Counted from the first letter of the stretch, positions 5,045-16,800 are shown. The stretch: 24,000 nt of DNA from an uncultured Zetaproteobacteria bacterium (GCA_964501925.1 CAZCTM010000023.1:1-24000); one strand, 5' to 3'. Made by a program: numbers and translations. The notes: generated from the letters alone by a model not told the origin.

Positions 5045-5149
5045 GCCGCAAGCATACCCGCAGCCTGCGTGGCTTAACAGCCACCTTCACCCGACAGGCA
5101 ACCAAAACTGCTACACTGGCCGTATTCGTAGTGTTCCAGGAGGTGAACA

Positions 5150-5827
5150 GTGAAGCATTTTGTGATGGCTTTCAGCCTGCTCGCGCTCGTTATGCCGGCA
5201 AAAAACACTCTAGCCGGCGAGGCCAAAAAAAAGGTCGAGGATGCGATTCAGGTCATTGAGGAAATCATGGCCATGCCGGAAAAAGGGATTCCCCGGGATT
5301 TGCTGCGTGAATCTGCGGCGGTGGCCATCTTCCCCGGTGTTATCAAGGCAGGTTTTGTTTTCGGGGGCAAATACGGACGCGGTGTTATTCTCAGGCACAA
5401 CGTCAAGGCAAACAGTTGGTCACCACCAGCCTTTTTTTCCATTGGTGCCGGTAGCGTGGGCTGGCAGATCGGGGCGCAATCAACGGATCTGGTATTGGTG
5501 ATTCGAAGCAGGCGGGGGCTCGAAGGATTGCTCAAGAGCGAGTTTACGCTGGGTGGTGATGCCTCTGTTGCCGCCGGGCCTGTTGGCAGAAAGGCTGCCG
5601 CGGGCGTGGATGTCAGCCTCAAAGCGGAAGTTTTGTCCTACTCAAGATCCCGGGGACTGTTTGCCGGCCTTGCACTTGAAGGAGCAAAGCTCAACAGCCT
5701 GGAGAAAATGAATCAGCAATATTATGGCAGGAAACTTTCAGCCCGGGACATACTTCTTGATGGCAAGGCGGATCCGCCCGATTCCGCTATCCGGTTGATT
5801 CGGGTCATGTCTTCCTACACCAAGTAA
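5150..5827 (+). CDS. Secreted SYLF (Ysc84/DUF500) domain protein
   Basis: GTG start 6 nt after AGGAGG, and an N-terminal signal peptide (MKHFVMAFSLLALVMPAKNTLAG). SYLF-like pattern: AVAIFPGVIKAGFVFGGKYGRGVIL ... GGDASVAAGPVGR ... SRGLFAGLALEG. Confidence 0.8.
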   Translation: MKHFVMAFSLLALVMPAKNTLAGEAKKKVEDAIQVIEEIMAMPEKGIPRDLLRESAAVAIFPGVIKAGFVFGGKYGRGVILRHNVKANSWSPPAFFSIGAGSVGWQIGAQSTDLVLVIRSRRGLEGLLKSEFTLGGDASVAAGPVGRKAAAGVDVSLKAEVLSYSRSRGLFAGLALEGAKLNSLEKMNQQYYGRKLSARDILLDGKADPPDSAIRLIRVMSSYTK

Positions 5828-5838
5828 GCTCATATGGC

Positions 5839-6678
5839 ATGACAGCGCATGAGGGAGGGTCAACCTTGAGCGGGCAGGTCTTGAGGCTCTTCCCCCGGCC
5901 TCATGGCTACTTTCCCCTTAAAGGCCTGTATCTTGACCTGGATCAGCTTCAGAATGTTCCTGTTGTCTATGGGAATTTCATCACCAGCCTGGATGGCCGG
6001 ATTGCGCTGACCGATCCGAACGACGGTGAATCGCAGGTTCCGCGGGAGCTTGCCAATCCCGCAGACTGGCGACTGTATCAGGAACTGGCGGCACAAGCGG
6101 ATGTGGTCATCACCAGCGCACGTTATTTCAGGCAATATGCGAGAAACAGGGCCCAGGATGTCCTGCCTCTTGGCAATGGGGGCGATGATGCCGATTTAAG
6201 GGACTGGCGTGATCGGCATGGCTTGAGTGCACAACCAGCCGTGGCCATTCTCAGCAAAGGTCTGGATATCCCGAGGGAGGCATTGGCAGCGTATGGTGAT
6301 CGGGAGATCTATGTCTTCACCGGCGGGGATGCCGATACCCGCCGCGTCGCCTTGTTGAGGGACATGGGAATCCAGGTGATCCTGGCCGGGGGGTCAGCGG
6401 TTGAAGGCAGAAGGCTGATCAGCGCCCTTGCGAATCTGGGTTTCGAAAAGATCTATGCCATCGCCGGCCCAAAAGTGTTTCATAGCCTGCTGGCGGCAGG
6501 CGTTGTTGACTACCTCTTTCTGACTCTTGGGCACCAGATCCTGGGGGGTGATTCTTTTCAAACCATGGTAGAGGGTCCGAGACTTGAATCACCAAGGGAT
6601 CTCCGGCTTGTTTCCCTCTACTACGATGACCAGCGGGAAGACCGGTCACAGTTCTTTACCTGCTTTTCCTTTTCCTAG
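5839..6678 (+). CDS. RibD C-terminal domain / DHFR-like reductase family protein
   Basis: Motifs GNFITSLDGRIAL, ADVVITSARY and IYAIAGPKVFHSLLAAGVVDYLFLT resemble pyrimidine-reductase (RibD-C) family proteins. No deaminase domain is present. The stop TAG (6676-6678) lies inside the CTAG that flanks the MITE-like element. Confidence 0.7.
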   Translation: MTAHEGGSTLSGQVLRLFPRPHGYFPLKGLYLDLDQLQNVPVVYGNFITSLDGRIALTDPNDGESQVPRELANPADWRLYQELAAQADVVITSARYFRQYARNRAQDVLPLGNGGDDADLRDWRDRHGLSAQPAVAILSKGLDIPREALAAYGDREIYVFTGGDADTRRVALLRDMGIQVILAGGSAVEGRRLISALANLGFEKIYAIAGPKVFHSLLAAGVVDYLFLTLGHQILGGDSFQTMVEGPRLESPRDLRLVSLYYDDQREDRSQFFTCFSFS

Positions 6679-7194: not shown

Positions 7195-7514
7195 TAATCT
7201 TCAGGGTTGGCCTGTTTTTCAAACCCGAACAGTTTGATTTCTTTGACACGTCGGGCATTGTCATATTCGATAATCACCTTGCGCCGGTATTTTTCCCCCG
7301 TTGCCGGATCGGCGAAATCCTCGATATAAATCGCACGATGTGGATGAAGGGTATCGAGCAGCACGGGGCTCCCCAGGAGTTTCTCCACCCGGAATCGGGT
7401 GTCACCTTCCCGAATCTGGCCCACGATCTCAGGATCAAGATCGTTTCCCTGGTGAAGGGGGTGCTGGAGACAGGCCGAAAGCAGAAGAATGGATATCAGT
7501 AACAACCGTTTCAT
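7194..7514 (-). CDS. bamE: Outer membrane protein assembly factor BamE (SmpA/OmlA lipoprotein)
   Basis: Lipobox LLSAC after the signal peptide (MKRLLLISILLLSAC). BamE-like core: GNDLDPEIVGQIREGDTRFRVEKLLGSP. 106 aa. ATGA overlap with the hldD stop (7511-7514). Confidence 0.85.
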   Translation of the reverse strand: MKRLLLISILLLSACLQHPLHQGNDLDPEIVGQIREGDTRFRVEKLLGSPVLLDTLHPHRAIYIEDFADPATGEKYRRKVIIEYDNARRVKEIKLFGFEKQANPED

Positions 7515-8455
7515 GTCGTTTCTCCATGGTCAAGCAAGGCTTCTTTCTCCAGATTCCGGATGTAGTCATCCATTCCCTTCTCGAGGTTCCAGGCAGGTTT
7601 CCAGTCGAGAATGGATCTGGCCTCGCTCAGATCGGCCTCGGTGTGGTTCTGGTAGAAGGCATAAGGGTTGTCAATGTATTCCACTTCAAGTCTTTTACCC
7701 AGAATCTGGCCAAGGATGTCGATAATATCATTGAAACTTCTGGACGTGCCGGTCCCGATGTTACAGATACCCGATCTTGGTGCCTCAAGTGCAGCGATGT
7801 TGGCCTCGACGACGTCCCTGATATAGACGAAATCGCGTCTCTGTTGCCCAAACTTGAACAGGCGCGGACGTTTGCCGCTCAATACCTGCTGATAGAGTTG
7901 CAGGATCATTGAGGAGGTCTTGCCCTTGTGCCGCTCACCGGGTCCATACACGTTAAAATAACGAAGCCCGATGATGACCGATGAATGCCTTTCAAACCAT
8001 CGGCGGGCGACTCGATCCATGGCAAGTTTGGAGAAACCGTAAATGTTTTCCGGGACTTCTCCGCTGCCTATCCGGTTGGGTGCGGGGGAGTTGCCGTACA
8101 CCCCCGCAGAGGAGGCATAGACTACCCGGGTTCCGGAGGCGTGACTTGCCTTGAGAATGTCTGCAAAGGCATCGGTATTCACGGAGAGCATGTGACGCTG
8201 ATCCATGATGGTGGTATCCGTAATTGCTGCCTGGTGCAAAATGGCAGCGAACTCTCCGTTGGCAATCTCGTCAAGAAGTACGGGATCATTGGCCTCAATG
8301 GCCCTCAGTTCACAGTCGGTCCCGATCAGATTATGCCAGTCACCACTCTCAAAAGTATCTGCGATGACCACGTCATAATCCGGTCTGCCGGTAAGGGCGG
8401 CTGCCAGATTGGACCCGATAAATCCCGCTCCGCCGGTAATCAGAATGCGCTGCAA
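7511..8455 (-). CDS. hldD: ADP-L-glycero-D-manno-heptose 6-epimerase
   Basis: SDR Rossmann motif [13 protein letters not shown], catalytic YGFSK, and blocks closely matching E. coli HldD as I remember it: [20 protein letters not shown] vs [48 protein letters not shown]. Confidence 0.85.
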   Translation of the reverse strand: [314 protein letters not shown]

Positions 8456-8512
8456 GGTCTCAGTCGGCCAACGATGGGTTGAAGACAGTAGCTGGTGTGG
8501 ATCACCTGATTC

Positions 8513-9127
8513 CTAATCCACATACGCTGGTGGTCCGGCAATATAGGCACCCTTAAGTCCCCATTTTCCAATCTTGGTGCCGATCCGGATAGTCTTGCTC
8601 AGGTTTGCGCGTCGCAACCTTGCACCACGGAGGTCGGCATTGGAGAGGTTGGCACCTTCCAGGTTCGCTCCTCGAAGGTCCGCGCTCCGCAGGTCGGCAT
8701 TCTGAAGGTTGCACCCAGCCAGGTTTGCCTCCATTAGCTTGACCTCTGAGAGATCCCTGCCGGAAAGATCCTGTCCGGACAGATCAATGCCCATCAACGT
8801 CCAGCCGTTTCGCAAATAGACCATGATATTATCAAGATCTATTCGCATCCCCCTGATTTTTGCGCTCATCAGGAAGGTGTGTTCCATCGAGGCACCAACG
8901 AGGTTGGCTCCCTGAAGATTGGTCCTCGTAAGGTTGACGTGGTCAAGGTTTGCCCCTTCCAGGTTGGCGTTTTCGAGGTCGGTTTCCTTAAGATTGCATC
9001 CGGAAAGATTGGCGCGGGAGAGCTTGGCACAGGAAAGATCACACCCTGACAGGTCAAGTCCCGACAGATCTTCTCCGGACAGGTCCCGACCGTCACGTAC
9101 AGCTTGTACTACTTCCTCAGCATTCAT
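8513..9127 (-). CDS. Pentapeptide repeat protein
   Basis: 204 aa dominated by A(D/N)LxG-type pentapeptides (ANLEGANLDHVNLTRTNLQGANL; ADLRSADLRGANLEGANLSNADLRGARLRRANL). They form two blocks split by a roughly 23-aa non-repeat insert (aa 91-113). Confidence 0.9.
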   Translation of the reverse strand: MNAEEVVQAVRDGRDLSGEDLSGLDLSGCDLSCAKLSRANLSGCNLKETDLENANLEGANLDHVNLTRTNLQGANLVGASMEHTFLMSAKIRGMRIDLDNIMVYLRNGWTLMGIDLSGQDLSGRDLSEVKLMEANLAGCNLQNADLRSADLRGANLEGANLSNADLRGARLRRANLSKTIRIGTKIGKWGLKGAYIAGPPAYVD

Positions 9128-9263: not shown

Positions 9264-10238
9264 ATGCATGCGACCTTGCCACTGTTGACCGAAACCGATT
9301 TCCCGACCATTCGGCGAAACAGGCTTGAGACCTTGCAGGTGAATCTTGGTTATCTATGTAACCAAACCTGTGTCCATTGCCATGTTAATGCAGGCCCTCG
9401 CCGTCCCGAGTTGATGGATCAGAAGACAGCTGAGATGGTTCTTGAATTTCTGAGAAATTCCGCAGTGAAAACCCTGGATCTGACTGGCGGGGCACCGGAG
9501 ATGAATCCCCATTTCAGATATCTGGTGACTGAAGCGGGAAAGCTGGGTGTGAAGGTCATGGATCGGTGCAACCTTACCATTCTGGAAGAGGCGGATTATC
9601 AGGGGCTGGCTGAATTTCTGGCCAGCCAGCGTGTTGAGATCATTGCCTCCATGCCCTGTTATCTGGAGGAGAATGTGAATGCCCAACGGGGGATGTGGAC
9701 ATTCCAGGCAAGTATCCGTGCCCTCAGGCGGCTGAATGCCCTGGGCTATGGCCGGGAAGGTTCGGGTTTGGTCATGAATCTGGTGTATAACCCCCTTGGT
9801 CCAAGCCTGCCACCACCTCAGAACATTCTGAAAGAGACCTACAAAAAGGAGCTCAAATCCCGTTACGGGATTGTCTTCAATGATCTTTTTACCATCACCA
9901 ACATGCCTATCCAGCGTTTTGGCAGCATGCTTATTTCTCAGGGGAAGTTTGAGGAGTACATGCAATTGCTCAAGGATGCGTATCGAATGGAAAACCTGGA
10001 TGGTCTCATGTGTCGAAGCCTGATCAGTGTGGATTGGCGGGGGTATGTCTATGACTGCGATTTCAATCAGATGCTGGGGTTGCCGCTGGTGATGAATGGG
10101 AGGCCTCGCCACCACCTGAGCGATCTGATCGGTCGGAGTCTGGAGGGCAATCCCATTGTGGTGATGGACCACTGCTATGGCTGTACGGCCGGCCAGGGCT
10201 CCAGTTGCGGTGGGGCTCTGAACGACGAAATCTCTTGA
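9264..10238 (+). CDS. arsS: Radical SAM/Cys-rich domain protein, ArsS-type (arsenosugar biosynthesis)
   Basis: Radical SAM CxxxCxxC (CNQTCVHC) in LQVNLGYLCNQTCVHCHVNAGP, and a C-terminal Cys-rich tail (CYGCTAGQGSSCGG) typical of the ArsS family. It sits 9 nt upstream of arsM. Confidence 0.85.
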   Translation: MHATLPLLTETDFPTIRRNRLETLQVNLGYLCNQTCVHCHVNAGPRRPELMDQKTAEMVLEFLRNSAVKTLDLTGGAPEMNPHFRYLVTEAGKLGVKVMDRCNLTILEEADYQGLAEFLASQRVEIIASMPCYLEENVNAQRGMWTFQASIRALRRLNALGYGREGSGLVMNLVYNPLGPSLPPPQNILKETYKKELKSRYGIVFNDLFTITNMPIQRFGSMLISQGKFEEYMQLLKDAYRMENLDGLMCRSLISVDWRGYVYDCDFNQMLGLPLVMNGRPRHHLSDLIGRSLEGNPIVVMDHCYGCTAGQGSSCGGALNDEIS

Positions 10239-10247
10239 GAGGAGACA

Positions 10248-11075
10248 ATGCAAATGGAATTCAAGGCTGACGCTATCCGTCGGCAGGTGAGGGAAAGCTA
10301 TGCCGAGGTTGCAAAGTCCAGCAATGAGGGCAGCTGTTGCGGTGAAACAGCCGGCTGCTGCGGTGTGTCCGATGATGCCGCGATCAACGCCCTGATTTCT
10401 ACCCGTCTTGGGTATTCGGAGGATGATCTTGCCAGTGTGCCCGAGGGTGCCGACATGGGCCTGGGTTGTGGCAATCCACGTGCCATTGCAAGTCTCAGGG
10501 TTGGAGAGGTGGTTGTTGATCTTGGGAGTGGTGGTGGCTTCGATGCCTTTCTTGCCGCCCGCGAGGTGGGCGAAACGGGGCACGTGATCGGCATCGACAT
10601 GACGCCGGACATGTTGTCCAAGGCGCGTCGGAACGCAGAAAAAGGGAAATTCACGAATGTTGAGTTCCGGTTGGGTGAGATTGAGCATCTGCCGGTTGCC
10701 GATAACACTGTGGATGTGATCATGTCCAACTGCGTGATCAATCTTTCCCCGAACAAGCCTCAGGTCTTTCGGGAGGCCTTCCGCATCCTTAAACCCGGCG
10801 GAAGGCTGGCCATTTCCGATGTGGTGGCCACCCGTGAGATGCCCGATGAAATGAGAAACGATCCCGCCCTCTATGCCGGCTGCATGGCCGGGGCGTCCCT
10901 GATTGATGATCTTGAGGCGATGATGGCTGAGGCCGGTTTTACGGATGTCCGAATTGAGCCGAAGGATGAATCACGCGAGTTTATCCGCGACTGGGCGCCG
11001 GAGAGGGGAGTGGAAGACTATGTAGTCTCGGCCTACATCATGGCCAGGAAACCCGGGCGGGATTGCTGCAGCTAG
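10248..11075 (+). CDS. arsM: Arsenite S-adenosylmethionine methyltransferase
   Basis: N-terminal Cys pairs (CCGETAGCCG), GLGCGNP, SAM motif VVDLGSGGGFD, SNCVINL and YAGCMAGA match the conserved As(III)-binding Cys positions of ArsM. GAGGAG RBS before the ATG. Confidence 0.9.
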   Translation: MQMEFKADAIRRQVRESYAEVAKSSNEGSCCGETAGCCGVSDDAAINALISTRLGYSEDDLASVPEGADMGLGCGNPRAIASLRVGEVVVDLGSGGGFDAFLAAREVGETGHVIGIDMTPDMLSKARRNAEKGKFTNVEFRLGEIEHLPVADNTVDVIMSNCVINLSPNKPQVFREAFRILKPGGRLAISDVVATREMPDEMRNDPALYAGCMAGASLIDDLEAMMAEAGFTDVRIEPKDESREFIRDWAPERGVEDYVVSAYIMARKPGRDCCS

Positions 11076-11266
11076 TCTCCCACACTCGCCATTCTTTGAT
11101 AGCAGGTGAGCCACATGACCGAGCAGCTCGGAGGCGCCATTTATTCGTAAAGATTATTGAGCAACCGGAAACGACCTTTATGTTCACACTGCCTGAAGCC
11201 GGCACTTATCAGATACGTTGTGTGTTGCATGATGGTATGATCGCCACAATTCACGTCATCAGGTAA
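11063..11266 (+). pseudogene. Possible C-terminal remnant of a type-1 copper (cupredoxin) protein
   Basis: The ORF ends with TFMFTLPEAGTYQIRCVLHDGMIATIHVIR, a cupredoxin-like last two strands with C-x2-H-x2-M ligand spacing (amicyanin-like). It has no signal peptide or N-terminal half, and its 5' end overlaps the arsM 3' end. Confidence 0.35.
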
Positions 11267-11406: not shown

Positions 11407-12018
11407 ATGAGAAAATCAGTGAACATATTTCTCGCAGTTCCGTTGCTTATGGGACTGACGATGTATTCGTTTTCAGCAGAGGCAGGCTCAAACCCCTGTA
11501 ATCCATGCAGTTCAAATCCCTGCAACCCGTGCAAGGTCCAGAAGAAGGTGAACCCATGCAATCCGTGTGGCTCGAATCCGTGCTCGACCAACCCCTGTTC
11601 CATGAAGAAAAAACAGAATCCCTGCTCGACGAAACCAGCCAATCCCTGCGCCATGAAAAGCAATCCGTGTTCAGCGGATGCCAATACGGCAACACGTCCG
11701 CATGCGTATGATAACTTCTGGCAGGCTGTGGCAGTGGGTCGCATGATGTGGAATGATGAGAATCTGGGCACGTCGGGTCTTGCGTGCATGTCCTGCCATG
11801 CGGGATACGAACAGTTGAATCTGGAGAAGCGCCAGAATTTTCCTCATTACGTAAAGATGGTCGGCGATGTTGTGACTCTTGACCAGATGATTAACTACTG
11901 CATGGTTAATCCCATGAAGGGAAAGCAGTTCGGAAAGAATTCCAGGGAGCTTACGGCGATGGCTGCCTACTATCGTGCCTACCGGATGCAGTATCTGAAG
12001 GAGAAGCGAGGCAAGTAA
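11407..12018 (+). CDS. Secreted mono-heme c-type cytochrome with N-terminal Asn-Pro-Cys (NPC) repeat region
   Basis: AAGGAGG RBS and a signal peptide ([26 protein letters not shown]). Eleven NPC tripeptides in aa 29-88. One CxxCH (CMSCH, nt 11785-11799) in a roughly 100-aa C-terminal domain. Confidence 0.85.
11491..11670 (+). repeat. Coding tandem-like repeat: 11 x AAY-CCN-TGY (Asn-Pro-Cys)
   Basis: [60 protein letters not shown], read directly from the sequence. Three C-N-P-C (CxxC) pairs. Confidence 0.9.
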
Positions 12019-12024
12019 CATCGG

Positions 12025-13218
12025 GTGTGCAAGCGGGACTGGATATGGATGGCGCTTGCAGTCGGTTTTTTGGCTGCGGGTGCCCATCTTCTTCTGGCGG
12101 AGGCGCATGACGGGGATCCGGGGTTGCCCGAATCCCATTGGAATCGCCCACTACCGGCGCAAGGGAGCCCGCCTTCAGGTTGGCCGGCGCTCTGGCACGA
12201 CCTGGATCCTCAGGCATGTGGCCAGTGTCATCAGAGGCAGTTTGATGACTGGCGGCAGAGCCTGCATGCCCATGCCTTCTCTGCCGGGCTGGTCGGTCAG
12301 TTCCCGGGTCTTGGAAAGCGTGAATCCAATCGCTGTCTCGATTGCCATGCCCCGCTGGCCGAACAGAAATTCGCTCACGAATCCCAGATCATGGAGGCTC
12401 TGGAGAAGCTTGGGCGCCCGTCTTCCCTGAAAAGGCTACCCCTGCGTCACGCCGGTGTCAGCTGCGCTTCCTGCCATGTCCGTAACTGGAGGCGCTACGG
12501 ACCGCCGCCACGCGACTCGGGCAGGGTCGGCCAGGTAGAAGCCTCGGCGCATGGCGGCTTTTATGCCACCCGGACTTTTGAACAGTCCAGGTTCTGTGCC
12601 GCCTGCCATCAGTTTCCCCAATCGGCAGCGGTCAATGGAAAACCCCTGGAGAACACCGTAGAGGAGTGGAGGCGGAGCCGTTTTGCCAAAGATGGCATTC
12701 AGTGCCAAACCTGTCACATGCCGGATCGACGGCATGAGTTCAAGGGCATTCACGATCCGGCCATGACCCGAAAGGGGCTGGAATTCGATGTGCACCGCGC
12801 CGGACATGGCGGTGAATTGATCATTCGCTCCACCTGGATCGGGCACGCCTTTCCCACCTACGTCACCCCCAGGGTCATTGTCATGGCCGAGGCCCTGGAT
12901 AAGGGTGGAAAAAGCCTGAGGAGCTGGTCATGGGAGATTGTGCGCGAGGTTGTCTTTGAAGGTCGCTGGCGGGAGATTAGGGATAGCAGGCTCATGCCCG
13001 GCCAGCGGCGGAGCTTCCAGCCCGGCCCCTTGCCGGCAGGCACACATGCCCTCGTGTTTCGGGTGAGGGTCTTGCCCGATGATTTTTACAAAGGGGTTTA
13101 CCGCAGCCTTTTGGCATCGAAGCTGAAACCCGCGGCGGCCAGGCAAATCAGGGCTGCACTGGATAGGGCCAGTGAAAACGACTATCTGCTCTTCGAACAG
13201 AGACTAGATCTTCCCTGA
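12025..13218 (+). CDS. Secreted penta-heme c-type cytochrome (cytochrome c554-like multiheme family)
   Basis: Five CxxCH motifs (CGQCH, CLDCH, CASCH, CAACH, CQTCH). N-terminal hydrophobic signal (MALAVGFLAAGAHLLLAEA). A first-heme context (CGQCHQRQFDDWRQSLHAHAF) typical of c554-type multiheme domains. A roughly 150-aa heme-free C-terminal domain. GTG start at 12025, or ATG at 12049. Confidence 0.85.
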   Translation: MCKRDWIWMALAVGFLAAGAHLLLAEAHDGDPGLPESHWNRPLPAQGSPPSGWPALWHDLDPQACGQCHQRQFDDWRQSLHAHAFSAGLVGQFPGLGKRESNRCLDCHAPLAEQKFAHESQIMEALEKLGRPSSLKRLPLRHAGVSCASCHVRNWRRYGPPPRDSGRVGQVEASAHGGFYATRTFEQSRFCAACHQFPQSAAVNGKPLENTVEEWRRSRFAKDGIQCQTCHMPDRRHEFKGIHDPAMTRKGLEFDVHRAGHGGELIIRSTWIGHAFPTYVTPRVIVMAEALDKGGKSLRSWSWEIVREVVFEGRWREIRDSRLMPGQRRSFQPGPLPAGTHALVFRVRVLPDDFYKGVYRSLLASKLKPAAARQIRAALDRASENDYLLFEQRLDLP

Positions 13219-13467
13219 CTCCTGAACTTTCCTCAAGGCCTCCCGGATTCTGTTGCAGTCTGATTCCGACAAGCGTGCTCCCGTGTCGGCGTCGCTTTGC
13301 TGGATGCGGTTCAATATCTCCTCCAGAATCCTGGCGTTGTGCTCATGGTCGCGACAAAAACTGCAGATCATGATATGGAAGCGGAGCCGAATACGTTCGA
13401 GGACGGTTAATTTGCGTTCGCATGAATCAGATAACAGACGGCTTGCTTCCCGGCAATAGTGCTTCAT
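13204..13467 (-). CDS. Small soluble zinc-binding (ZAS, zf-HC2) anti-sigma factor, RsrA-like
   Basis: From Met 13467: MKHYCREASRLL...RFHIMICSFC gives C5-x25-H31-x3-C35-x2-C38. No transmembrane segment. 87 aa. Its ATG overlaps the sigma-factor stop (ATGA, 13464-13467). The track ORF start at 13512 is probably too long. Confidence 0.8.
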   Translation of the reverse strand: MKHYCREASRLLSDSCERKLTVLERIRLRFHIMICSFCRDHEHNARILEEILNRIQQSDADTGARLSESDCNRIREALRKVQESGKI

Positions 13468-14051
13468 ATGCGCCCACCTTTCTTGCAACCAAACCAGTTT
13501 TGTTCGAGGCATTTCCGTAACAGTAAACGGGCGCGGTGCATGATCACGTGCATGTTGGTCGGAGATATATCACAGGCATTACATATGGTTTCCGTATCTT
13601 CACCATTGAGCTCCCTGAGCGAAAAAACGGTCTGCTGCTGTTCCGAGAGCCTTGAAATACATGATGCCAGGACCTTCATGAATTGCTGGTCATTCAGGAG
13701 TTCTTCCGGATTGGTGTTCCAGCGCACGGGGGCATCCTTCCAGTGCCCCTGGGAATCGAAGAATGTCGACGTTGGGTCCGCTTCAGCACGATTCATGATG
13801 TCGCGTTCCCGGATCTGCTTGCGGATATGGTCGGTGATTTTGTGCTTGAGAATCCCCACCAGCCAGGTCCGGACTGAAGATTCGGATCGAAAACCTTGCC
13901 GGGCCTTCCATGCTGCCAGCAAGGTTTCCTGGACCATCTCCCTGCTCAGCTCTTCATTTCTGAGGCGCAGGAGGGCATATCGATAAAGATAATCACCATG
14001 CTGGTTGAGCCAGCTTTCCGCCTCGTGCTGAGCGTGATTCTTTACGGACAT
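13464..14051 (-). CDS. ECF-type RNA polymerase sigma-70 family factor
   Basis: Region 2 (YLYRYALLRLRNEELSREMVQETLLAAWKA...VRTWLVGILKHKITDHIRKQ) and region 4 HTH (LSEQQQTVFSLRELNGEDTETICNACDISPTNMHVIMHRARLLLRKCL). The track ORF extends to 14195, but the extra N-terminus is non-sigma-like and would overlap the divergent gene. Met at 14051 or 14069 is the likely start. Confidence 0.85.
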   Translation of the reverse strand: MSVKNHAQHEAESWLNQHGDYLYRYALLRLRNEELSREMVQETLLAAWKARQGFRSESSVRTWLVGILKHKITDHIRKQIRERDIMNRAEADPTSTFFDSQGHWKDAPVRWNTNPEELLNDQQFMKVLASCISRLSEQQQTVFSLRELNGEDTETICNACDISPTNMHVIMHRARLLLRKCLEQNWFGCKKGGRI

Positions 14052-14180
14052 ACCATCATTCTGCCACATAACCACGAAAGCTCCACAGTGAGAGCATATC
14101 AGTCCCCGACCATGGGTTGTAATGTAGCGCCTTGCCTGCCGACAAAACAACAAAGACGGCATTATGTAAAGGAGTTTCAT

Positions 14181-14645
14181 ATGAAAGCATATCATCCTGT
14201 GAGCCGGTTTGCTTTTGCTGTCCTGGTCTTCCTGTTGACCGGGGCATCAGCGGCAATAGGCAAGCCCGTTGTCATCAAGCTCACCCAGACATCCTGCCAG
14301 TTTGTGGAAATCGAGGGTGTAGACCATGGCTTCAGGAGCAAAAGCGCTGAGGACTGTCGCAGGATCAACCGTGAGACAGGTGCGGAGAGGCTGGCCAAGG
14401 CCAGGGTGCTGGAACTGGAGCCGGGGGAGTACATCTTCCGTGTAAAAAACAAGAACGTTCCCTATGCGCTTGGTTTCTGGCTTCGAGGCAAGGCCCTGGG
14501 AAGACTGACCCTTCCAGGCGTGTCAGGTGGCGGCCTGAGGGCGGGAGAGTCCAGAGATTACCCTGTATCCCTGGTGGAAGGTGAATACCTTTATTCCTGC
14601 CCCTTGAATCCAACCCCGAATTACCTTCTTATTGTCCGACCGTGA
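14181..14645 (+). CDS. Secreted hypothetical protein with three Cys (possible cupredoxin-like beta-sandwich)
   Basis: AAGGAG RBS 6 nt before the ATG at 14181, and a signal peptide (MKAYHPVSRFAFAVLVFLLTGASAA). Strand-like segments (LELEPGEYIFRVKNKN; VEGEYLYSCPLNPTPNYLLIV) are reminiscent of cupredoxin-like domains, but no full copper ligand set is seen. The track ORF start at 13896 is rejected. Confidence 0.6.
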   Translation: MKAYHPVSRFAFAVLVFLLTGASAAIGKPVVIKLTQTSCQFVEIEGVDHGFRSKSAEDCRRINRETGAERLAKARVLELEPGEYIFRVKNKNVPYALGFWLRGKALGRLTLPGVSGGGLRAGESRDYPVSLVEGEYLYSCPLNPTPNYLLIVRP

Positions 14646-15382
14646 AGACATCCCGCCCTCAGGCAGCCATACTGTCTTTCAAGCGCCTGCTCCCTGTTGC
14701 CATCCTGATCGCAGGCCTGGTCGTCTTTTTCGCCTTTGATCTGGGGCGTTATCTGAGCTTTGCGACCCTGCAGGAGCATCGCGGGTTTCTTCTGAACTGG
14801 GTGAACACGCACCCCTGGCTGTCGTCGCTCAGTTACGTTGGCTTGTATATCCTCATTGTGGCTTTTTCCCTGCCTGGCGGGGCTGTCATGACGATCAGTG
14901 GCGGTTTTCTGTTTGGCACCCTCCTGGGAAGCCTGCTGGCGGTGGTTGGGGCCACCATTGGCGCGACAGCGCTCTTTCTGATTGCCAAAACATCTTTGGG
15001 AGATTATCTCCTGCAAAAGGCGGGACCTAGCATCAAGAAAATGCAGGCAGGTTTTTCCAGAAATGCCATGAATTATCTCTTTGTGCTTCGCCTGATTCCC
15101 ATCTTTCCCTTCTTTCTGGTCAACCTGGCGCCGGCATTTCTTGGCGTGAGCCTGCGCGTTTACGTGACAGCAACCTTCTTCGGCATTATGCCGGGCGCAT
15201 TGATCTATGCCATGGTTGGCGCGGGTCTGGGCAGCGTGTTTGATCGAGGTGAGTCGTTCTCAGCGGACTCGGTTCTTACACCGGAAATCATTGGGGGGCT
15301 GGCCGGACTGGCATTGCTCGCCCTTCTTCCTGTCATTTACAACAGGATCAGATCCGGAAAGCACATGCAAGAGGAGGCGTGA
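14642..15382 (+). CDS. TVP38/TMEM64 family (DedA-superfamily, SNARE-associated) inner membrane protein
   Basis: 246 aa with about 5-6 hydrophobic helices and a core pattern (FSLPGGAVMTISGGFLFGTLLGSLLAVVGATIGATALFLIAK ... LRLIPIFPFFLVNLAPAFLGV). Its GTG start overlaps the upstream stop (GTGA, 14642-14645). Confidence 0.8.
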   Translation: MKTSRPQAAILSFKRLLPVAILIAGLVVFFAFDLGRYLSFATLQEHRGFLLNWVNTHPWLSSLSYVGLYILIVAFSLPGGAVMTISGGFLFGTLLGSLLAVVGATIGATALFLIAKTSLGDYLLQKAGPSIKKMQAGFSRNAMNYLFVLRLIPIFPFFLVNLAPAFLGVSLRVYVTATFFGIMPGALIYAMVGAGLGSVFDRGESFSADSVLTPEIIGGLAGLALLALLPVIYNRIRSGKHMQEEA

Positions 15383-16800
15383 TGACCATGAACGTGGATA
15401 TATGCGTGATTGGCGCCGGCTCCGGCGGGCTGGCTGTTGCTGCAGGCGCTTCACAAATGGGGGCCACGGTTGCCCTCGTAGAAAAGGGTGAAATGGGGGG
15501 GGATTGCTTGAACACGGGATGTGTTCCATCCAAGTCCCTGCTTGCCGCGGCCCATGTCGCCCAGAGCGCACGTGAGGCCGGGAAATTTGGCCTGGATGTT
15601 TCTGAGCCGAAAACGCGCTGGGACGGCGTGCATGCGCATGTCCACGGGGTGATGGATGCCATCGCACCCAATGACTCTCAGGAGCGGTTCGAGAAGCTCG
15701 GCGTGAACGTCATTCGCGCCAGGGCCGAATTTATCGACCATCGGACCATCCGGGCAGGTGATCAGAGGGTACGCGCCAAATATTTCGTGCTGGCAACCGG
15801 GTCTTCACCGTTTGTTCCACCCATCGAGGGGCTGAAGGACGTTGCTTATTTGACCAATGAGACGATTTTTCACAACAAGGATGCCATCAAGCACCTGATC
15901 GTGATTGGAGGAGGGCCGATCGGGATGGAAATGGCCCAGGCGCATCGACGACTGGGTGCTGAGGTGACTGTCATGGAACTGGCCCGATTGCTGCCAAAGG
16001 ATGACCCCGACCTGAGCAGGATTGTTGTCCGGCGCATGTCCGATGAGGGTGTCCGGTTTTACGAGGGCGGCAGAAATCTGAAACTGGAGAAGAAGACAGA
16101 CGGGATTGTCGCCAGCTGTGAAACGGAGGAAGGGAGAAAACAGGTTCGGGGTTCGCATCTGTTGATCGCAACTGGCAGACGGGCGAATGTCACTGGTCTG
16201 AATCTTGAAGCCGCGGGTATCGTCTTTTCGGACAGGGGCGTGCAGGTGGATGCGCGTCTTCGGACAACCAATAAACGAATTTTTGCCGTGGGCGATGTTG
16301 TCGGTCCTTACCAGTTTACACATATGGCTGCTTATCAGGCAGGTATTGTTATCCGGAATATTCTGTTTCGTCTTCCCGCCAGGGTGGACTATTCGGCCGT
16401 CCCCTGGGTGACCTATACCGATCCGGAACTGGCCCATGTCGGCATGTCACAGGCGGAAGCAGAGGCAAAGGGGCTCGATGTCCGGGTCTTGCACTGGTCT
16501 TTTCGTAAAAACGATCGCGCCCAGGCGGAACGAAGAACAGAGGGGCAGGTCAAGGTCGTCACCACAAAGAGAGGGTTGATCCTGGGTGCCAGCATCGTTG
16601 GTTTGCATGCGGGTGAGCTGATTCAACCCTGGATCCTGGCGGTCAGTGAAAAAATGAAGATCGGCTCCATGGCAAACATGATTTCGCCGTATCCTACACT
16701 GGCAGAGGTCAACAAACGCATTGCAGGCAGCTATTACACGTCCACCCTGTTCGGTGAACGCATGCGGAAACTTGTACGTTTCCTGCTAAGACTCCCCTGA
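15379..16800 (+). CDS. FAD-dependent pyridine nucleotide-disulfide oxidoreductase (Lpd/MerA-like, class I)
   Basis: FAD GxGxxG (VIGAGSGG), redox-active disulfide (GGDCLNTGCVPSK), NAD(P)H site (VIGGGPIGMEMA), and a C-terminal dimerisation domain with SPYPTLAE. Start/stop overlap with the TVP38 gene (GTGA, 15379-15382). No NmerA domain and no C-terminal Cys pair. Confidence 0.9.
   Translation: MMTMNVDICVIGAGSGGLAVAAGASQMGATVALVEKGEMGGDCLNTGCVPSKSLLAAAHVAQSAREAGKFGLDVSEPKTRWDGVHAHVHGVMDAIAPNDSQERFEKLGVNVIRARAEFIDHRTIRAGDQRVRAKYFVLATGSSPFVPPIEGLKDVAYLTNETIFHNKDAIKHLIVIGGGPIGMEMAQAHRRLGAEVTVMELARLLPKDDPDLSRIVVRRMSDEGVRFYEGGRNLKLEKKTDGIVASCETEEGRKQVRGSHLLIATGRRANVTGLNLEAAGIVFSDRGVQVDARLRTTNKRIFAVGDVVGPYQFTHMAAYQAGIVIRNILFRLPARVDYSAVPWVTYTDPELAHVGMSQAEAEAKGLDVRVLHWSFRKNDRAQAERRTEGQVKVVTTKRGLILGASIVGLHAGELIQPWILAVSEKMKIGSMANMISPYPTLAEVNKRIAGSYYTSTLFGERMRKLVRFLLRLP

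What the first reader, a model, noticed from the sequence alone, without database searches (positions are those of the whole stretch)
11407..13218. Secreted cytochrome c with an 11-fold Asn-Pro-Cys repeat, paired with a penta-heme cytochrome: an uncharacterised periplasmic Cys-rich redox module
Seen in sequence: after a signal peptide, aa 29-88 contain 11 NPC tripeptides, three of them doubled as NPCNPC to give C-N-P-C CxxC pairs, with basic spacers (KVQKKV, MKKKQ). A mono-heme domain follows with one CMSCH. Six nt downstream starts a secreted protein with five CxxCH motifs and a roughly 150-aa heme-free C-terminal domain. I know of no characterised function for an NPC-repeat module. Eleven periplasmic thiols tethered to a heme suggest soft metal/metalloid binding (As(III), Cu(I), Hg, Fe), a polysulfide/thiol relay, or a redox-switchable tether. 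Its position just downstream of arsS-arsM makes arsenic or sulfur chemistry an obvious but unproven link.
Basis: partly seen in the sequence, partly recalled or inferred. Interest (0 to 1): 0.65.

Follow-up and report, generated by a model that had tools for sequence, protein, structure and literature searches.

The report
Cysteine-repeat cytochrome paired with pentaheme cytochrome
Two adjacent genes in an iron-oxidising marine bacterium encode a secreted one-heme cytochrome with a floppy tail of eleven Asn-Pro-Cys units and a five-heme partner; this pairing, and free-standing Asn-Pro-Cys peptides, recur across several bacterial phyla, and I found no published description of them.

Summary
Gene A (11407-12018) encodes a signal peptide, 11 NPC tripeptides (aa 29-88) and one CMSCH heme motif. 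Gene B (12025-13218) has five CxxCH motifs and a heme-free beta-sandwich C-terminus.

The repeat is not chance and not a mere linker. NPC is kept through synonymous codon changes. The copy number varies from 4 to 19 in Zetaproteobacteria and reaches 35 in other phyla. Every tail cysteine sits in an NPC/xPC unit.

A's heme domain is SoxA/TsdA-type, and its invariant Cys165 aligns with SoxA's heme-ligating Cys114. B belongs to the pentaheme family of T. tepidum c552 and the polysulfide reductase MccSep/ExtKL, but lacks MccSep's catalytic Cys and Sec.

B follows A in 57 of 67 testable loci, in at least four other phyla as well as Zetaproteobacteria. About 30 loci add a stand-alone secreted NPC peptide. 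Elsewhere such peptides sit beside YeeE/YedE-type sulfur transporters, DUF302, rhodanese and a conserved 154-aa secreted protein that this window also encodes.

Best reading (about 0.4): a periplasmic poly-thiol carrier arm worked on by a His/Cys heme, wired by the pentaheme, acting on sulfur or another thiol-seeking species. Metal sponge and plain tether remain live rivals. The arsenic link is synteny confined to Zetaproteobacteria.

The parts
11407..12018 (+). Gene A: secreted NPC-tailed monoheme cytochrome c (203 aa)
   Evidence: ORF. It has 289 homologues, all named 'hypothetical' or 'cytochrome c', and the best are Mariprofundaceae/Zetaproteobacteria.
11407..11484 (+). Signal peptide of A (aa 1-26, ...FSAEA|GS)
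   Evidence: Read from the sequence. Hydrophobic N-termini ending in an AxA-like site are present in the homologues.
11491..11670 (+). NPC repeat tail (aa 29-88): 11 Asn-Pro-Cys units, predicted disordered
   Evidence: Unit positions and codons. N, P and C are at least 90% conserved in aligned units of 47 homologues. Copy number runs 4-17 in 120 homologues. AlphaFold2 gives pLDDT below 50 and no secondary structure for aa 16-87.
11737..11973 (+). SoxA/TsdA-type cytochrome c domain (aa 111-189)
   Evidence: Pfam PF21342, E 3.4e-13, 49.8 bits against a cut-off of 27. A PDB profile hit to SoxA 1h31_A residues 47-137, E 1.3e-11. The best fold matches are SoxA and TsdA.
11785..11799 (+). Heme-binding motif CMSCH (C127, C130, H131)
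   Evidence: Invariant in 47 homologues.
11899..11901 (+). Cys165 in the invariant DQMINYCM motif: the inferred distal heme ligand
   Evidence: Invariant. It aligns with C114 in 'MINACR' of R. sulfidophilum SoxA, with numbering checked against H80 of that protein's CxxCH. That C114 is the heme-1 ligand is from memory of the SoxAX structure paper.
12025..13218 (+). Gene B: secreted pentaheme cytochrome c (397 aa from the GTG; 389 aa from the ATG at 12049)
   Evidence: ORF. More than 2,400 homologues, and the best are Mariprofundaceae 'multiheme c-type cytochrome'. It lies directly downstream of A in 57 of 67 testable loci.
12202..12759 (+). Five-heme cap of B (aa about 60-245; CxxCH at aa 65, 104, 147, 191, 227)
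   Evidence: Motifs. Across 61 family members five further His are invariant or nearly so (H81, H176, H237, H243, H274), together with an NGKPLENTxxEW loop.
12778..13215 (+). Heme-free beta-sandwich (Ig-like) C-terminal domain of B
   Evidence: The AlphaFold2 model has confident strands from model residue 244 onward. The only full-length fold match is the T. tepidum pentaheme c552, 5ze8, E 1e-11, TM 0.53.
9264..11075 (+). Context: arsS and arsM directly upstream on the same strand
   Evidence: NCBIfam TIGR04167 (455 bits against a cut-off of 300) and NF008823 (373 against 263). This synteny is found only in Zetaproteobacterial loci.
13204..14051 (-). Context: soluble zf-HC2 (HxxxCxxC) anti-sigma factor and ECF sigma factor, convergent with B
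   Evidence: Pfam and NCBIfam hits. The same pair follows B in about 10 Zetaproteobacterial loci. The sigma start near 14051 is inferred from where the model alignment begins.
14181..14645 (+). Context: 'p155', a conserved 154-aa secreted protein that travels with NPC systems
   Evidence: No significant Pfam hit. It is 51-61% identical to proteins next to NPC genes in four unrelated lineages. In 38 metagenome loci of at least 6 kb it sits in two conserved neighbourhoods.
14642..16800 (+). Context: DedA/VTT membrane protein plus a MerA-like pyridine-nucleotide disulfide oxidoreductase, in one operon with p155
   Evidence: Pfam PF09335, PF07992 and PF02852. It scores below the MerA cut-off. The p155/oxidoreductase/DedA trio occurs in about 22 of 38 loci.

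Best explanation
Genes A and B are the core of a conserved periplasmic redox module. Often there are three genes: NPC peptide, A, then B.

Shown:
- A is exported.
- Its tail is a disordered, lysine-rich string of cysteines, each held in an Asn-Pro-Cys unit.
- Its heme domain is SoxA/TsdA-type and keeps a cysteine where SoxA has its axial heme ligand.
- B is a c552/MccSep-type pentaheme with an Ig-like domain.
- The two genes stay adjacent across phyla.

Inferred mechanism: the NPC tail, and the free NPC peptides, act as a multi-copy thiolate carrier arm. This is analogous to the single swinging cysteine of SoxY. The His/Cys heme of A makes or breaks S-S (or S-X) bonds on those cysteines, in cis or in trans. 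B carries the electrons to or from the respiratory chain. B may also offer a second reaction site for peptide-bound sulfur, with the peptide thiols standing in for the Cys and Sec that B has lost relative to MccSep.

The species handled is most likely sulfane sulfur, polysulfide or thiosulfate, or a related thiol-seeking chalcogen. In iron-oxidising Zetaproteobacteria the role would be protective or homeostatic rather than energy-yielding.
For: 1. Conservation points to function. Cysteines are conserved only inside NPC units, through synonymous change and large swings in copy number. Cys counts are even in 69 peptides and odd in 50, so a fixed disulfide-bonded fold is unlikely. Five residues (A, C, P, N, K) make up about 85% of the mature peptides.

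2. The heme is SoxA/TsdA-type. Pfam E 3.4e-13. SoxA 1h31 at E 1.3e-11, with C165 on SoxA C114. The nine best fold hits (prob 0.89-1.00) are all SoxA or TsdA, though every E-value is weak (0.03-0.2).

3. B's relatives do sulfur chemistry. B matches MccSep (E 9e-8) and c552 (E 1e-5) by sequence and c552 by fold. MccSep is a polysulfide and selenite reductase whose active site is a His/Cys heme plus Sec.

4. A and B are adjacent in 42 of 47 Zetaproteobacterial loci and 15 of 20 loci from other phyla.

5. Neighbours have a sulfur-trafficking flavour.
- Motiliproteus: a TlpA-like periplasmic redoxin, an NPC peptide, an A-like cytochrome, a B-like cytochrome, p155, a YeeE/YedE transporter and a class-V aminotransferase.
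- DUF302 plus a YeeE/YedE transporter, in one locus with rhodanese, lie next to NPC peptides in three other lineages.
- The order NPC-cytochrome, DUF6969, p155, DUF302, YeeE recurs in about 11 of 38 metagenome loci.
- DUF302 and YeeE/YedE sit inside sox clusters of Sulfitobacter.
Against: - There is no experiment on any member of the family.
- A aligns with the heme-1 domain of SoxA, which is not SoxA's catalytic heme. M161, M166, M170 and H147 are also conserved, so the real distal ligand is not settled.
- B has five invariant extra histidines (H176 in 98% of members), enough for five bis-His hemes. It could therefore be a pure electron carrier.
- Of the 150 nearest cluster representatives of A's heme domain, 70 have no NPC. 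Some carry Met-rich, His-rich, CGAC-rich or acidic tails instead, which fits metal binding or a generic linker.
- The Zetaproteobacterial tails are also rich in Met and His.
- From general knowledge, cultured Zetaproteobacteria do not grow on reduced sulfur.
- This window holds no sox, sulfur-transporter or rhodanese genes.
- The neighbourhood evidence comes from other phyla and mostly from loci that lack B.
Confidence: 0.4

Rival explanations
1. Periplasmic soft-metal or metalloid sponge. The NPC tail and peptides bind Cu(I), Zn, Cd, Hg, Fe or As(III) through thiolates, helped in Zetaproteobacteria by Met and His in the spacers. The cytochromes keep the thiols reduced or change the redox state of the bound metal.
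For: - The composition is metallothionein-like, with 15-18% Cys. Zetaproteobacterial spacers are Met/His-rich, such as SMKKHM or an HGH ending.
- Other members of A's family carry Met-rich or His-rich tails instead of NPC.
- Nearby genes are a zinc-finger anti-sigma/ECF sigma pair, a MerA-like flavoprotein, and an ArsR-type regulator in one locus.
- arsS and arsM lie upstream in many Zetaproteobacteria.
- Copy number is variable, as expected for a sponge.
Against: - No cop, cus, czc or mer genes lie in any of the eight sampled NPC-peptide neighbourhoods or in this window.
- The flavoprotein scores below the MerA cut-off and has no C-terminal Cys pair.
- Most NPC peptides outside Zetaproteobacteria have Ala/Lys spacers and almost no Met or His.
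- A sponge does not explain why the partner heme domain is specifically SoxA/TsdA-type with a ligand-position Cys.
Confidence: 0.25
2. Structural tether or cross-linker. The repeat is a flexible spacer that anchors or polymerises the cytochrome through intermolecular disulfides or surface binding. A and B are then ordinary periplasmic electron carriers, for example in the iron-oxidation chain.
For: - The tail is predicted to be disordered.
- It is polycationic.
- Its length is very variable.
- Some family members have non-Cys low-complexity tails such as GEAEAK repeats.
- A six-unit NPC repeat exists in the disulfide-rich self-assembling spore protein CdeC of C. difficile.
- Zetaproteobacteria express many periplasmic cytochromes of unknown role.
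Against: - Near-invariance of N, P and C within units, set against free variation of the spacers, is more than a spacer needs.
- Free-standing secreted NPC peptides have nothing to tether.
- The same repeat appears on two unrelated heme domains and at both ends of A homologues.
- A cysteine in the heme-ligand position is conserved, and from general knowledge His/Cys hemes have low potentials poorly suited to an Fe(II)-to-oxygen chain.
Confidence: 0.15
3. Arsenic-specific module. A and B work with ArsS/ArsM on arsenite or methylated or thiolated arsenicals bound to the tail thiols.
For: arsS-arsM-(NPC peptide)-A-B lie on one strand in the window and in at least 14 Zetaproteobacterial loci. The only promoter-like site found in the region lies upstream of arsS. 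From general chemistry, As(III) binds vicinal thiols strongly.
Against: - The synteny is present in only 11-13 of 33 Zetaproteobacterial loci with enough upstream sequence, and in 0 of 24 loci from other phyla where A-B is still conserved.
- No arsenic genes lie near NPC peptides in the other lineages.
- arsM or arsS turn up in only 1-3 of the 80 p155 loci.
- The promoter scan is no better than shuffled sequence.
Confidence: 0.1

Closest known systems
SoxAX / SoxYZ thiosulfate-oxidising system (SoxA, PDB 1h31, 2c1d)
   Same: A's heme domain is homologous to the SoxA cytochrome domain and keeps the cysteine at the axial-ligand position. From established knowledge, SoxAX joins a sulfur substrate to a cysteine on a flexible carrier arm. 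That is the working analogy for the NPC tail.
   Different: - A has one heme domain only and scores below the SoxA equivalog cut-off (44 against 110 bits).
- The window has no SoxX, SoxYZ or SoxB.
- The carrier would be 4-35 cysteines in NPC units fused to the cytochrome or on separate peptides, not one Cys in a GGCGG tail on an Ig-fold protein.
- The aligned SoxA domain is the heme-1 domain, not the catalytic one.
TsdA thiosulfate dehydrogenase (PDB 4wq7 and related entries)
   Same: Same Pfam domain family. It is the second-best fold match (prob 0.92-0.98). Its catalysis goes through a heme-ligating Cys (statement in the MccSep paper).
   Different: TsdA is a diheme protein without a Cys-rich tail. 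No sequence-level PDB hit to TsdA appeared at E up to 1.
MccSep / ExtKL pentaheme selenoprotein, a polysulfide reductase of Geobacter (PDB 9wt8, 9wt9; bioRxiv 10.1101/2025.11.18.688581)
   Same: Five CxxCH motifs in a helical cap plus a C-terminal Ig-like domain. Sequence match at E 9e-8 and a partial NCBIfam ExtKL hit at E 1.3e-16. Both are periplasmic.
   Different: B has Leu/Glu where MccSep has C239/C240, and it has no Cys or Sec in the C-terminal domain. Both catalytic residues that define the family are therefore missing. It scores 60 bits against a cut-off of 250.
Penta-heme cytochrome c552 of Thermochromatium tepidum (PDB 5ze8), within the proposed 'PHC' family
   Same: It is the only significant full-length fold match (E 1e-11, TM 0.53), with a sequence match at E 1e-5. 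It has the same cap-plus-beta-sandwich build and an unknown function that has been suggested to lie in sulfur metabolism.
   Different: Identity is 17%. In the alignment c552 has a Cys (PLCQT) where B has PLENT. c552 is not known to be paired with a SoxA-like cytochrome.
Cysteine-rich metal-binding proteins (metallothioneins, periplasmic copper-storage and Met/His-rich copper proteins)
   Same: High Cys content, no aromatic residues, and likely disorder without a ligand.
   Different: The unit is N-P-C rather than CxC/CxxC clusters. The proteins are Sec-exported and fused or adjacent to c-type cytochromes. No metal-resistance genes lie nearby.
C. difficile exosporium protein CdeC
   Same: It contains a run of six NPC units of unknown function in a cysteine-rich, self-assembling protein.
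   Different: It is a Gram-positive spore-coat protein in a quite different sequence context. This is a resemblance of motif only, with no evidence of homology.

Membership tests
SoxA/TsdA cytochrome c domain (Pfam PF21342) | Matches the family HMM above the gathering score | tested here: met
   49.8 bits against a cut-off of 27, E 3.4e-13, aa 111-189. All 120 listed homologues carry PF21342.
SoxA/TsdA cytochrome c domain (Pfam PF21342) | One CxxCH motif with a cysteine at the distal-ligand position | tested here: met
   CMSCH and C165 are invariant in 47 sequences. C165 aligns with SoxA C114. Actual His/Cys ligation cannot be tested here.
SoxA proper (NCBIfam TIGR04484 equivalog) | Full-length SoxA scoring above the equivalog cut-off | tested here: not met
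   44 bits against a cut-off of 110. Only model positions 5-87 of 212 are matched.
SoxA proper (NCBIfam TIGR04484 equivalog) | Partner SoxX and a sox operon context (soxYZ, soxB) | tested here: not met
   No such domains in any major ORF of the window or among the conserved neighbours in 80 loci.
MccSep / ExtKL pentaheme (seleno)protein (NF040886) | Five CxxCH motifs plus a C-terminal Ig-like domain | tested here: met
   Five motifs. Beta-sandwich in the model. Local alignment to 9wt8/9wt9.
MccSep / ExtKL pentaheme (seleno)protein (NF040886) | Cys ligand of heme 2 (C239), strictly conserved in the family | tested here: not met
   The aligned residues are L208/E209. The NGKPLENT loop has no Cys in 61 family members.
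MccSep / ExtKL pentaheme (seleno)protein (NF040886) | Sec or Cys at position 325 in the Ig-like domain | tested here: not met
   There is no Cys after the fifth CxxCH and no in-frame TGA, since the ORF is continuous. The family is defined.
MccSep / ExtKL pentaheme (seleno)protein (NF040886) | Scores above the NCBIfam cut-off | tested here: not met
   60.3 bits against a cut-off of 250.
Pentaheme 'PHC' family (T. tepidum c552, ExtKL, cable-bacteria sPHC) | Shared fold: five-heme cap plus beta-sandwich | tested here: met
   Foldseek match to 5ze8, E 1e-11, TM 0.53/0.54, the only hit below 1e-3. The model is of moderate quality (mean pLDDT 66.7). The family is described.
SoxY-type sulfur carrier | Ig-fold protein with a C-terminal GGCGG carrier cysteine, paired with SoxZ | tested here: not met
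   The tail is disordered, N-terminal and built of NPC units. There is no SoxY/Z domain hit. The resemblance is functional analogy only.
Metallothionein-like metal binder | Binds metal ions stoichiometrically through clustered thiolates | not testable with these tools
   Only composition can be shown: 15-18% Cys, with CxxC in the NPCNPC doublets.
Arsenic resistance/biotransformation operon member | Consistent co-occurrence with ars genes wherever the gene is found | tested here: not met
   arsM is adjacent in 11-13 of 33 Zetaproteobacterial loci with at least 2 kb upstream, and in 0 of 24 loci from other phyla.

The most novel reading that the evidence does not exclude
NPC peptides and NPC tails are a new class of periplasmic poly-cysteine carrier. 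The carrier is found free, on SoxA-like cytochromes and on a cytochrome P460. Together with a His/Cys heme cytochrome, a Cys/Sec-less MccSep-type pentaheme, the cupredoxin-like single-Cys protein p155, DUF6969, DUF302, a YeeE/YedE transporter and a DedA plus flavoprotein disulfide reductase, it would form an undescribed envelope-spanning pathway. That pathway would capture, redox-process and import or export a thiol-seeking species such as sulfane sulfur, polysulfide or selenium. In it, peptide thiolates would replace the enzyme's own catalytic Cys/Sec and might even ligate the partner's open heme.
Probability: 0.3. Interest if true: 0.85.

Novelty: new variant of a known kind. Interest (0 to 1): 0.62.

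Why it matters
If the model holds, it adds a new way for bacteria to handle reactive sulfur or other thiol-seeking species outside the cytoplasm. The carrier would be a disordered multi-cysteine arm serviced by a His/Cys heme, rather than a folded single-cysteine carrier such as SoxY.

It would assign a role to a cytochrome pair found in most sampled Zetaproteobacteria, whose many periplasmic cytochromes are largely unassigned. It would also give a role to hundreds of unannotated small secreted peptides in Alpha-, Gamma- and Zetaproteobacteria, Nitrospinota, Tectomicrobia, Thermodesulfobacteriota and others.

It offers a natural comparison for the newly described MccSep polysulfide reductase: a relative that has lost both catalytic residues yet stays tightly conserved.

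It also gives testable partners for several orphan families: DUF302, DUF6969, the DedA-flavoprotein pair and p155.

Even if the tail proves to be a metal sponge or a tether, the family deserves a name and a profile model.

Tried and rejected
- **Chance or low-complexity artefact: rejected.** 11 of the window's 12 NPC tripeptides lie in 60 aa, the codons differ synonymously, and only a weak 24-nt tandem repeat is seen.
- **B as a MccSep/ExtKL member: rejected.** Both defining residues are missing.
- **A as a true SoxA: rejected.** It is below the cut-off, has a single domain and has no sox partners.
- **RiPP precursor idea for NPC peptides: dropped.** They carry Sec-type signal peptides and no maturase is conserved. 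A KamA-like radical SAM gene appears in one lineage only.
- **Formylglycine-enzyme-like gene as a partner: dropped.** It lies after B in only about 9 of 80 loci, and I assigned it by eye. It is kept as a side note.
- **Alternative cytochrome partners in the 10 loci without B:** none found.
- **Promoter and terminator scan:** no better than shuffled sequence, so the operon structure is unresolved.
- **Literature:** text searches for NPCNPC, NPCAANPC, Asn-Pro-Cys and similar found nothing on bacterial periplasmic proteins, only CdeC. Zetaproteobacteria papers do not name this pair.
- **Structure of p155:** Only a weak plastocyanin sequence hit was obtained.
- **AlphaFold models:** A (pLDDT 57.7) and B (66.7) are mediocre because hemes are not modelled. 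No coordinates were available to check heme ligands.
- **One of my scripts used the wrong reading frame for p155.** Its result was discarded and the search repeated.
Full report
**1. Check of the observation**

The finding is accurate at the stated coordinates.

- ORF A (11407..12018, +, 203 aa) starts with a signal peptide ending AEA|GS.
- It carries NPC at aa 29, 32, 37, 40, 49, 52, 57, 62, 71, 79 and 86, with three NPCNPC doublets and basic spacers.
- It has one CMSCH at aa 127-131 and one further cysteine, C165.
- ORF B (12025..13218, GTG start) begins 6 nt after A's stop. An ATG at 12049 is the start used for the identical database protein P0121.
- B has five CxxCH motifs at aa 65-231, then 166 heme-free residues, and no other cysteine in the mature protein.
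- arsS and arsM lie upstream and pass NCBIfam cut-offs.

The repeat is far beyond chance. The six-frame translation of the whole window holds 12 NPC tripeptides, and 11 of them are here. The units use different synonymous codons for N, P and C, and Tandem Repeats Finder sees only a 24-nt unit repeated 1.9 times. The repeat is therefore maintained at the protein level.

**2. What the two proteins are**

*Protein A.*
- aa 111-189 match the Pfam SoxA/TsdA cytochrome c domain (E 3.4e-13, above the gathering score). The SoxA equivalog model is matched only in part and below its cut-off.
- A profile of 47 homologues hits the N-terminal heme domain of Rhodovulum sulfidophilum SoxA (1h31_A residues 47-137, E 1.3e-11).
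- Counting along that alignment puts A's H131 on SoxA H80 and A's C165, in the invariant DQMINYCM motif, on SoxA C114. From memory of the SoxAX structure, H80 and C114 are the axial ligands of SoxA heme 1.
- C127, C130, H131 and C165 are invariant in the family. So are R97, P146-H147 and several other residues. M161 is invariant, and M166 and M170 are at least 90% conserved. Another distal ligand or a ligand switch therefore cannot be excluded.
- The AlphaFold2 model is weak (pLDDT 57.7). Its nine best PDB matches (prob 0.89-1.00) are all SoxA or TsdA, and the tail (aa 16-87) is predicted to be unstructured.

*Protein B.*
- It gives weak hits to several multiheme Pfam models and a partial hit to NCBIfam 'ExtKL' (E 1.3e-16, far below the cut-off).
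- Its closest solved relatives by sequence are the Geobacter multiheme selenoprotein MccSep (9wt8/9wt9, E 9e-8) and the T. tepidum penta-heme c552 (5ze8, E 1e-5).
- Its model has a confident C-terminal beta-sandwich, and 5ze8 is its only significant full-length fold match (E 1e-11, TM 0.53).
- MccSep was recently shown to be a periplasmic polysulfide reductase, and more weakly a selenite reductase. Its heme 2 is ligated by His122 and Cys239, and Sec325 reaches in from the Ig-like domain. Both residues define the family.
- B has Leu/Glu at the C239/C240 position and no Cys or Sec in its C-terminal domain. It is a relative, not a member.
- Across 61 B-family proteins from several phyla the following are invariant or nearly so: the five CxxCH motifs; five further histidines (H81, H176, H237, H243, H274); M232; an NGKPLENTxxEW loop at the place of MccSep's Cys; and a GHxFPTYVTP motif at the start of the beta domain. 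B could therefore be all bis-His, which would make it a wire. The conservation of polar residues is nevertheless strong for a mere wire.

**3. Distribution and conservation**

A has 289 detectable homologues in the 5.8-billion-protein set. The best 120 are all from Zetaproteobacteria or unlabelled metagenomes and are named 'hypothetical protein' or 'cytochrome c'. Each has a signal peptide and 4-17 NPC units. In nearly all, every pre-heme cysteine lies in an NPC (occasionally xPC) unit.

A scan of one genome per GTDB species returned 80 loci:
- 56 from Zetaproteobacteria, including the isolates Mariprofundus micogutta ET2 and Mariprofundus sp. EBB-1;
- 24 from Tectomicrobia, Nitrospinota, Nitrospirae, Thermodesulfobacteriota/'Deltaproteobacteria' and unclassified bacteria.

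NPC units are present in all of these. Outside Zetaproteobacteria they often flank the heme domain on both sides, with up to 35 units.

B lies directly downstream on the same strand in 42 of 47 Zetaproteobacterial loci and 15 of 20 other loci that have at least 1.5 kb of downstream sequence. The loci without B show no substitute cytochrome.

An exhaustive HMMER search with A's heme domain alone found only 299 cluster representatives among 1.84 billion. Of the best 150:
- 66 carry at least 3 NPC, 14 carry one or two, and 70 carry none;
- some of the last group carry Met-rich, His-rich, CGAC-rich or acidic repeat tails instead.

**4. The repeat exists on its own and on other hemes**

In about 30 of the 80 loci a separate small gene lies next to A, usually just upstream. 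It encodes a signal peptide followed by nothing but NPC units and short spacers, 70-170 aa in all. This window lacks that gene. In its place, at 11063-11266, is an unconserved ORF that looks like the C-terminal stub of a cupredoxin.

A profile built from repeat segments alone retrieved 371 proteins. Nearly all are 65-116-aa secreted NPC peptides with no Pfam domain. They come from Alpha- and Gammaproteobacteria, Tectomicrobia, Methylomirabilales and others.

In these peptides:
- N is at position -2 in 86% of cysteines and P at position -1 in 88%;
- Cys-Cys spacings cluster at 3, 5 and 6;
- A, C, P, N and K make up about 85% of the mature chain;
- Cys counts are even in 69 peptides and odd in 50.

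In one lineage 25 NPC units are fused to a cytochrome P460 domain.

Full-text searches for the motif found no paper on such bacterial proteins. The only hit of any relevance is a six-unit NPC run of unknown function in the C. difficile spore protein CdeC.

**5. Neighbourhoods**

*Within Zetaproteobacteria.*
- arsS-arsM-(NPC peptide)-A-B lie on one strand in the window and at least 14 loci. That is 11-13 of the 33 loci with at least 2 kb upstream, and none of the 24 loci from other phyla.
- A soluble HxxxCxxC anti-sigma/ECF sigma pair follows B, convergently, in about 10 loci.
- In Thermodesulfobacteriota-type loci a gene that looks like a Crp/Fnr regulator precedes A. This assignment is by eye from the sequence.

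*Around free NPC peptides in other bacteria.*
- In Motiliproteus the order is: a membrane-anchored TlpA-like thioredoxin (WCSAC), an NPC peptide, an A-like cytochrome with 27 NPC units, a B-like pentaheme, a 158-aa secreted protein, a YeeE/YedE-type 'Sulf_transp' protein, and a class-V aminotransferase.
- In Denitrobaculum and two metagenome lineages, NPC peptides sit by DUF302, Sulf_transp, DUF6969 and, in one of these lineages, rhodanese.
- Two other neighbourhoods were uninformative.

*The small secreted protein p155.* The 158-aa Motiliproteus protein is 54% identical to an ORF in this window, here called p155 (14181..14645, 154 aa, no significant Pfam hit). Homologues lie next to NPC genes in four unrelated lineages.

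A metagenome scan with p155 gave more than 538 hits. In the 38 loci of at least 6 kb it sits in one of two arrangements:
- with a MerA-like flavoprotein disulfide reductase and a DedA/VTT membrane protein (about 22 loci; the window has exactly this at 14181-16800);
- in the order NPC-cytochrome, DUF6969, p155, DUF302, YeeE/YedE, with or without NPC peptides (about 11 loci).

DUF302 and YeeE/YedE genes are reported inside sox clusters of Sulfitobacter. DedA proteins of this subfamily are often fused to such flavoproteins, and their function is unknown.

The rest of the window is housekeeping and holds no sox, cop, cus, czc or mer genes.

**6. How it most likely works**

*Shown.*
- A is an exported, disordered, polycationic multi-cysteine arm attached to a SoxA/TsdA-type heme domain with a ligand-position cysteine.
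- It is stably linked to a pentaheme cytochrome of the c552/MccSep family.
- The same arm occurs free and on another reactive-heme domain.
- The wider gene set has a recurrent sulfur-trafficking flavour.

*Inferred.* The NPC cysteines are carrier or substrate thiolates. A's heme forms or cleaves S-S (or S-X) bonds on them, in the way SoxAX loads SoxY. B moves the electrons, or acts on peptide-bound sulfur with the peptide thiols replacing MccSep's lost Cys and Sec. I put this at about 0.4.

*Rivals.*
- Soft-metal or metalloid sponge: 0.25.
- Disulfide-forming tether on ordinary electron carriers: 0.15.
- Arsenic-specific role: 0.1.
- The remainder is unassigned.

The main weaknesses are these:
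- there are no experimental data;
- the alignment is to SoxA's non-catalytic heme domain;
- B may be all bis-His;
- many relatives have non-Cys tails;
- the sulfur-flavoured neighbourhoods come from other phyla and mostly lack B.

**7. Novelty and verdict**

Both heme domains belong to known families, so the pair is a new variant of a known kind. The following appear to be undescribed:
- the NPC repeat as a conserved, widely distributed periplasmic element;
- its fixed pairing with these two cytochromes;
- its link to p155, DUF6969, DUF302, YeeE and the DedA-flavoprotein pair.

Interest is 0.62.

Noticed in passing
window 14181-14645 (+): 'p155' is a 154-aa secreted protein with no significant Pfam hit. 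It has invariant C39, C59 and C140 (YSCPLNPTP) and a VSGGGL motif, and is 51-61% identical across phyla. It gives a weak plastocyanin hit (E 0.67) in which the copper-ligand Cys is kept but the first His ligand aligns with Tyr and no His or Met follows the Cys. It travels either with a DedA protein plus a flavoprotein or with NPC-cytochrome/DUF6969/DUF302/YeeE.
   Followed up: partly
window 14642-16800 (+); L049 13015-15195; L066 about 4500-6600: A DedA/VTT membrane protein and a MerA-like pyridine-nucleotide disulfide oxidoreductase overlap by 4 nt in the window. In two A-containing Zetaproteobacterial loci they are fused into one protein of about 726 aa. The enzyme is below the MerA cut-off and lacks a C-terminal Cys pair.
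   Followed up: partly
window 11063-11266 (+): A 67-aa ORF overlaps the end of arsM and ends in a type-1 copper-like motif (C-x2-H-x2-M: GTYQIRCVLHDGMIATIHV). It has only a weak plastocyanin hit and no counterpart in any related locus. It is probably a gene remnant, and it lies where relatives carry the free NPC-peptide gene.
   Followed up: partly
window 13204-13512 (-) and 13464-14195 (-): A 102-aa soluble anti-sigma factor with the HxxxCxxC zinc-finger motif and extra cysteines (the RsrA-like type is my own reading), together with its ECF sigma factor. The pair is convergent with B and conserved after B in about 10 Zetaproteobacterial loci. The sigma ORF as listed (243 aa) probably starts internally, near 14051.
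   Followed up: partly
L087 4850-5947: A 365-aa protein with 25 NPC units fused to a cytochrome P460 domain (Pfam E 1.9e-7). The repeat is therefore not tied to the SoxA-like domain.
   Followed up: partly
L055, L056, L063, L074, L081 6400-7365 and others: In A homologues outside Zetaproteobacteria, NPC units flank the heme domain on both the N- and C-terminal sides, with up to 35 units in one protein.
   Followed up: partly
L081 5112-5741: In Motiliproteus a membrane-anchored TlpA/ResA-like thioredoxin (WCSAC) is encoded directly upstream of the NPC-peptide, A-like and B-like genes. This hints that the NPC cysteines are kept reduced or undergo thiol-disulfide exchange.
   Followed up: no
L004, L007, L015, L017, L052, L053 (downstream of B); L029, L060, L072: A protein of about 290 aa that looks by eye like the formylglycine-generating-enzyme/sulfatase-modifying family lies near A-B in 9 loci. 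It was not checked against Pfam.
   Followed up: no
L056, L067, L071, L072, L074, L077: A gene of about 230 aa that looks by eye like a Crp/Fnr-type regulator lies next to A-B in six loci from other phyla. It is directly upstream of A in five and after B in L074.
   Followed up: no
P0373, P0415, P0488, P0458 and others: Relatives of A's heme domain that lack NPC carry other low-complexity tails: Met-rich (DMMKKDGMMSGDTMKKD), His-rich (RHHRRHHKAKGE), KCGAC repeats, GCGPS repeats or GEAEAK repeats.
   Followed up: no
L084 7340-9715: DUF6969, a cytoplasmic protein with a His-rich HAHRGGEHGHFH motif, recurs beside NPC and p155 genes. In one lineage it is followed by a 536-aa protein with a weak radical-SAM hit and a CxxxxCxxC motif.
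   Followed up: no
L005, L006, L011 (between arsS and arsM); L023, L059, L066: A cytoplasmic protein of about 215 aa with a CPFC motif, which looks by eye like an AhpC/redoxin family member, is inserted between arsS and arsM in several Zetaproteobacterial loci. The window lacks it.
   Followed up: no
L008, L046, L047, L068, L072, L079; P0248, P0253, P0263, P0265, P0306, P0311: Some free NPC peptides end in a basic stretch followed by Trp (for example GKGKW, KKW, SKW). Trp is the last residue in 6 of 119 peptides, while Lys and Asn endings dominate.
   Followed up: no
window 7511-9127 (-): An NAD-dependent epimerase and a pentapeptide-repeat protein lie upstream of arsS. The same pair precedes arsS in the closest related loci (L001, L038, L047).
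   Followed up: no
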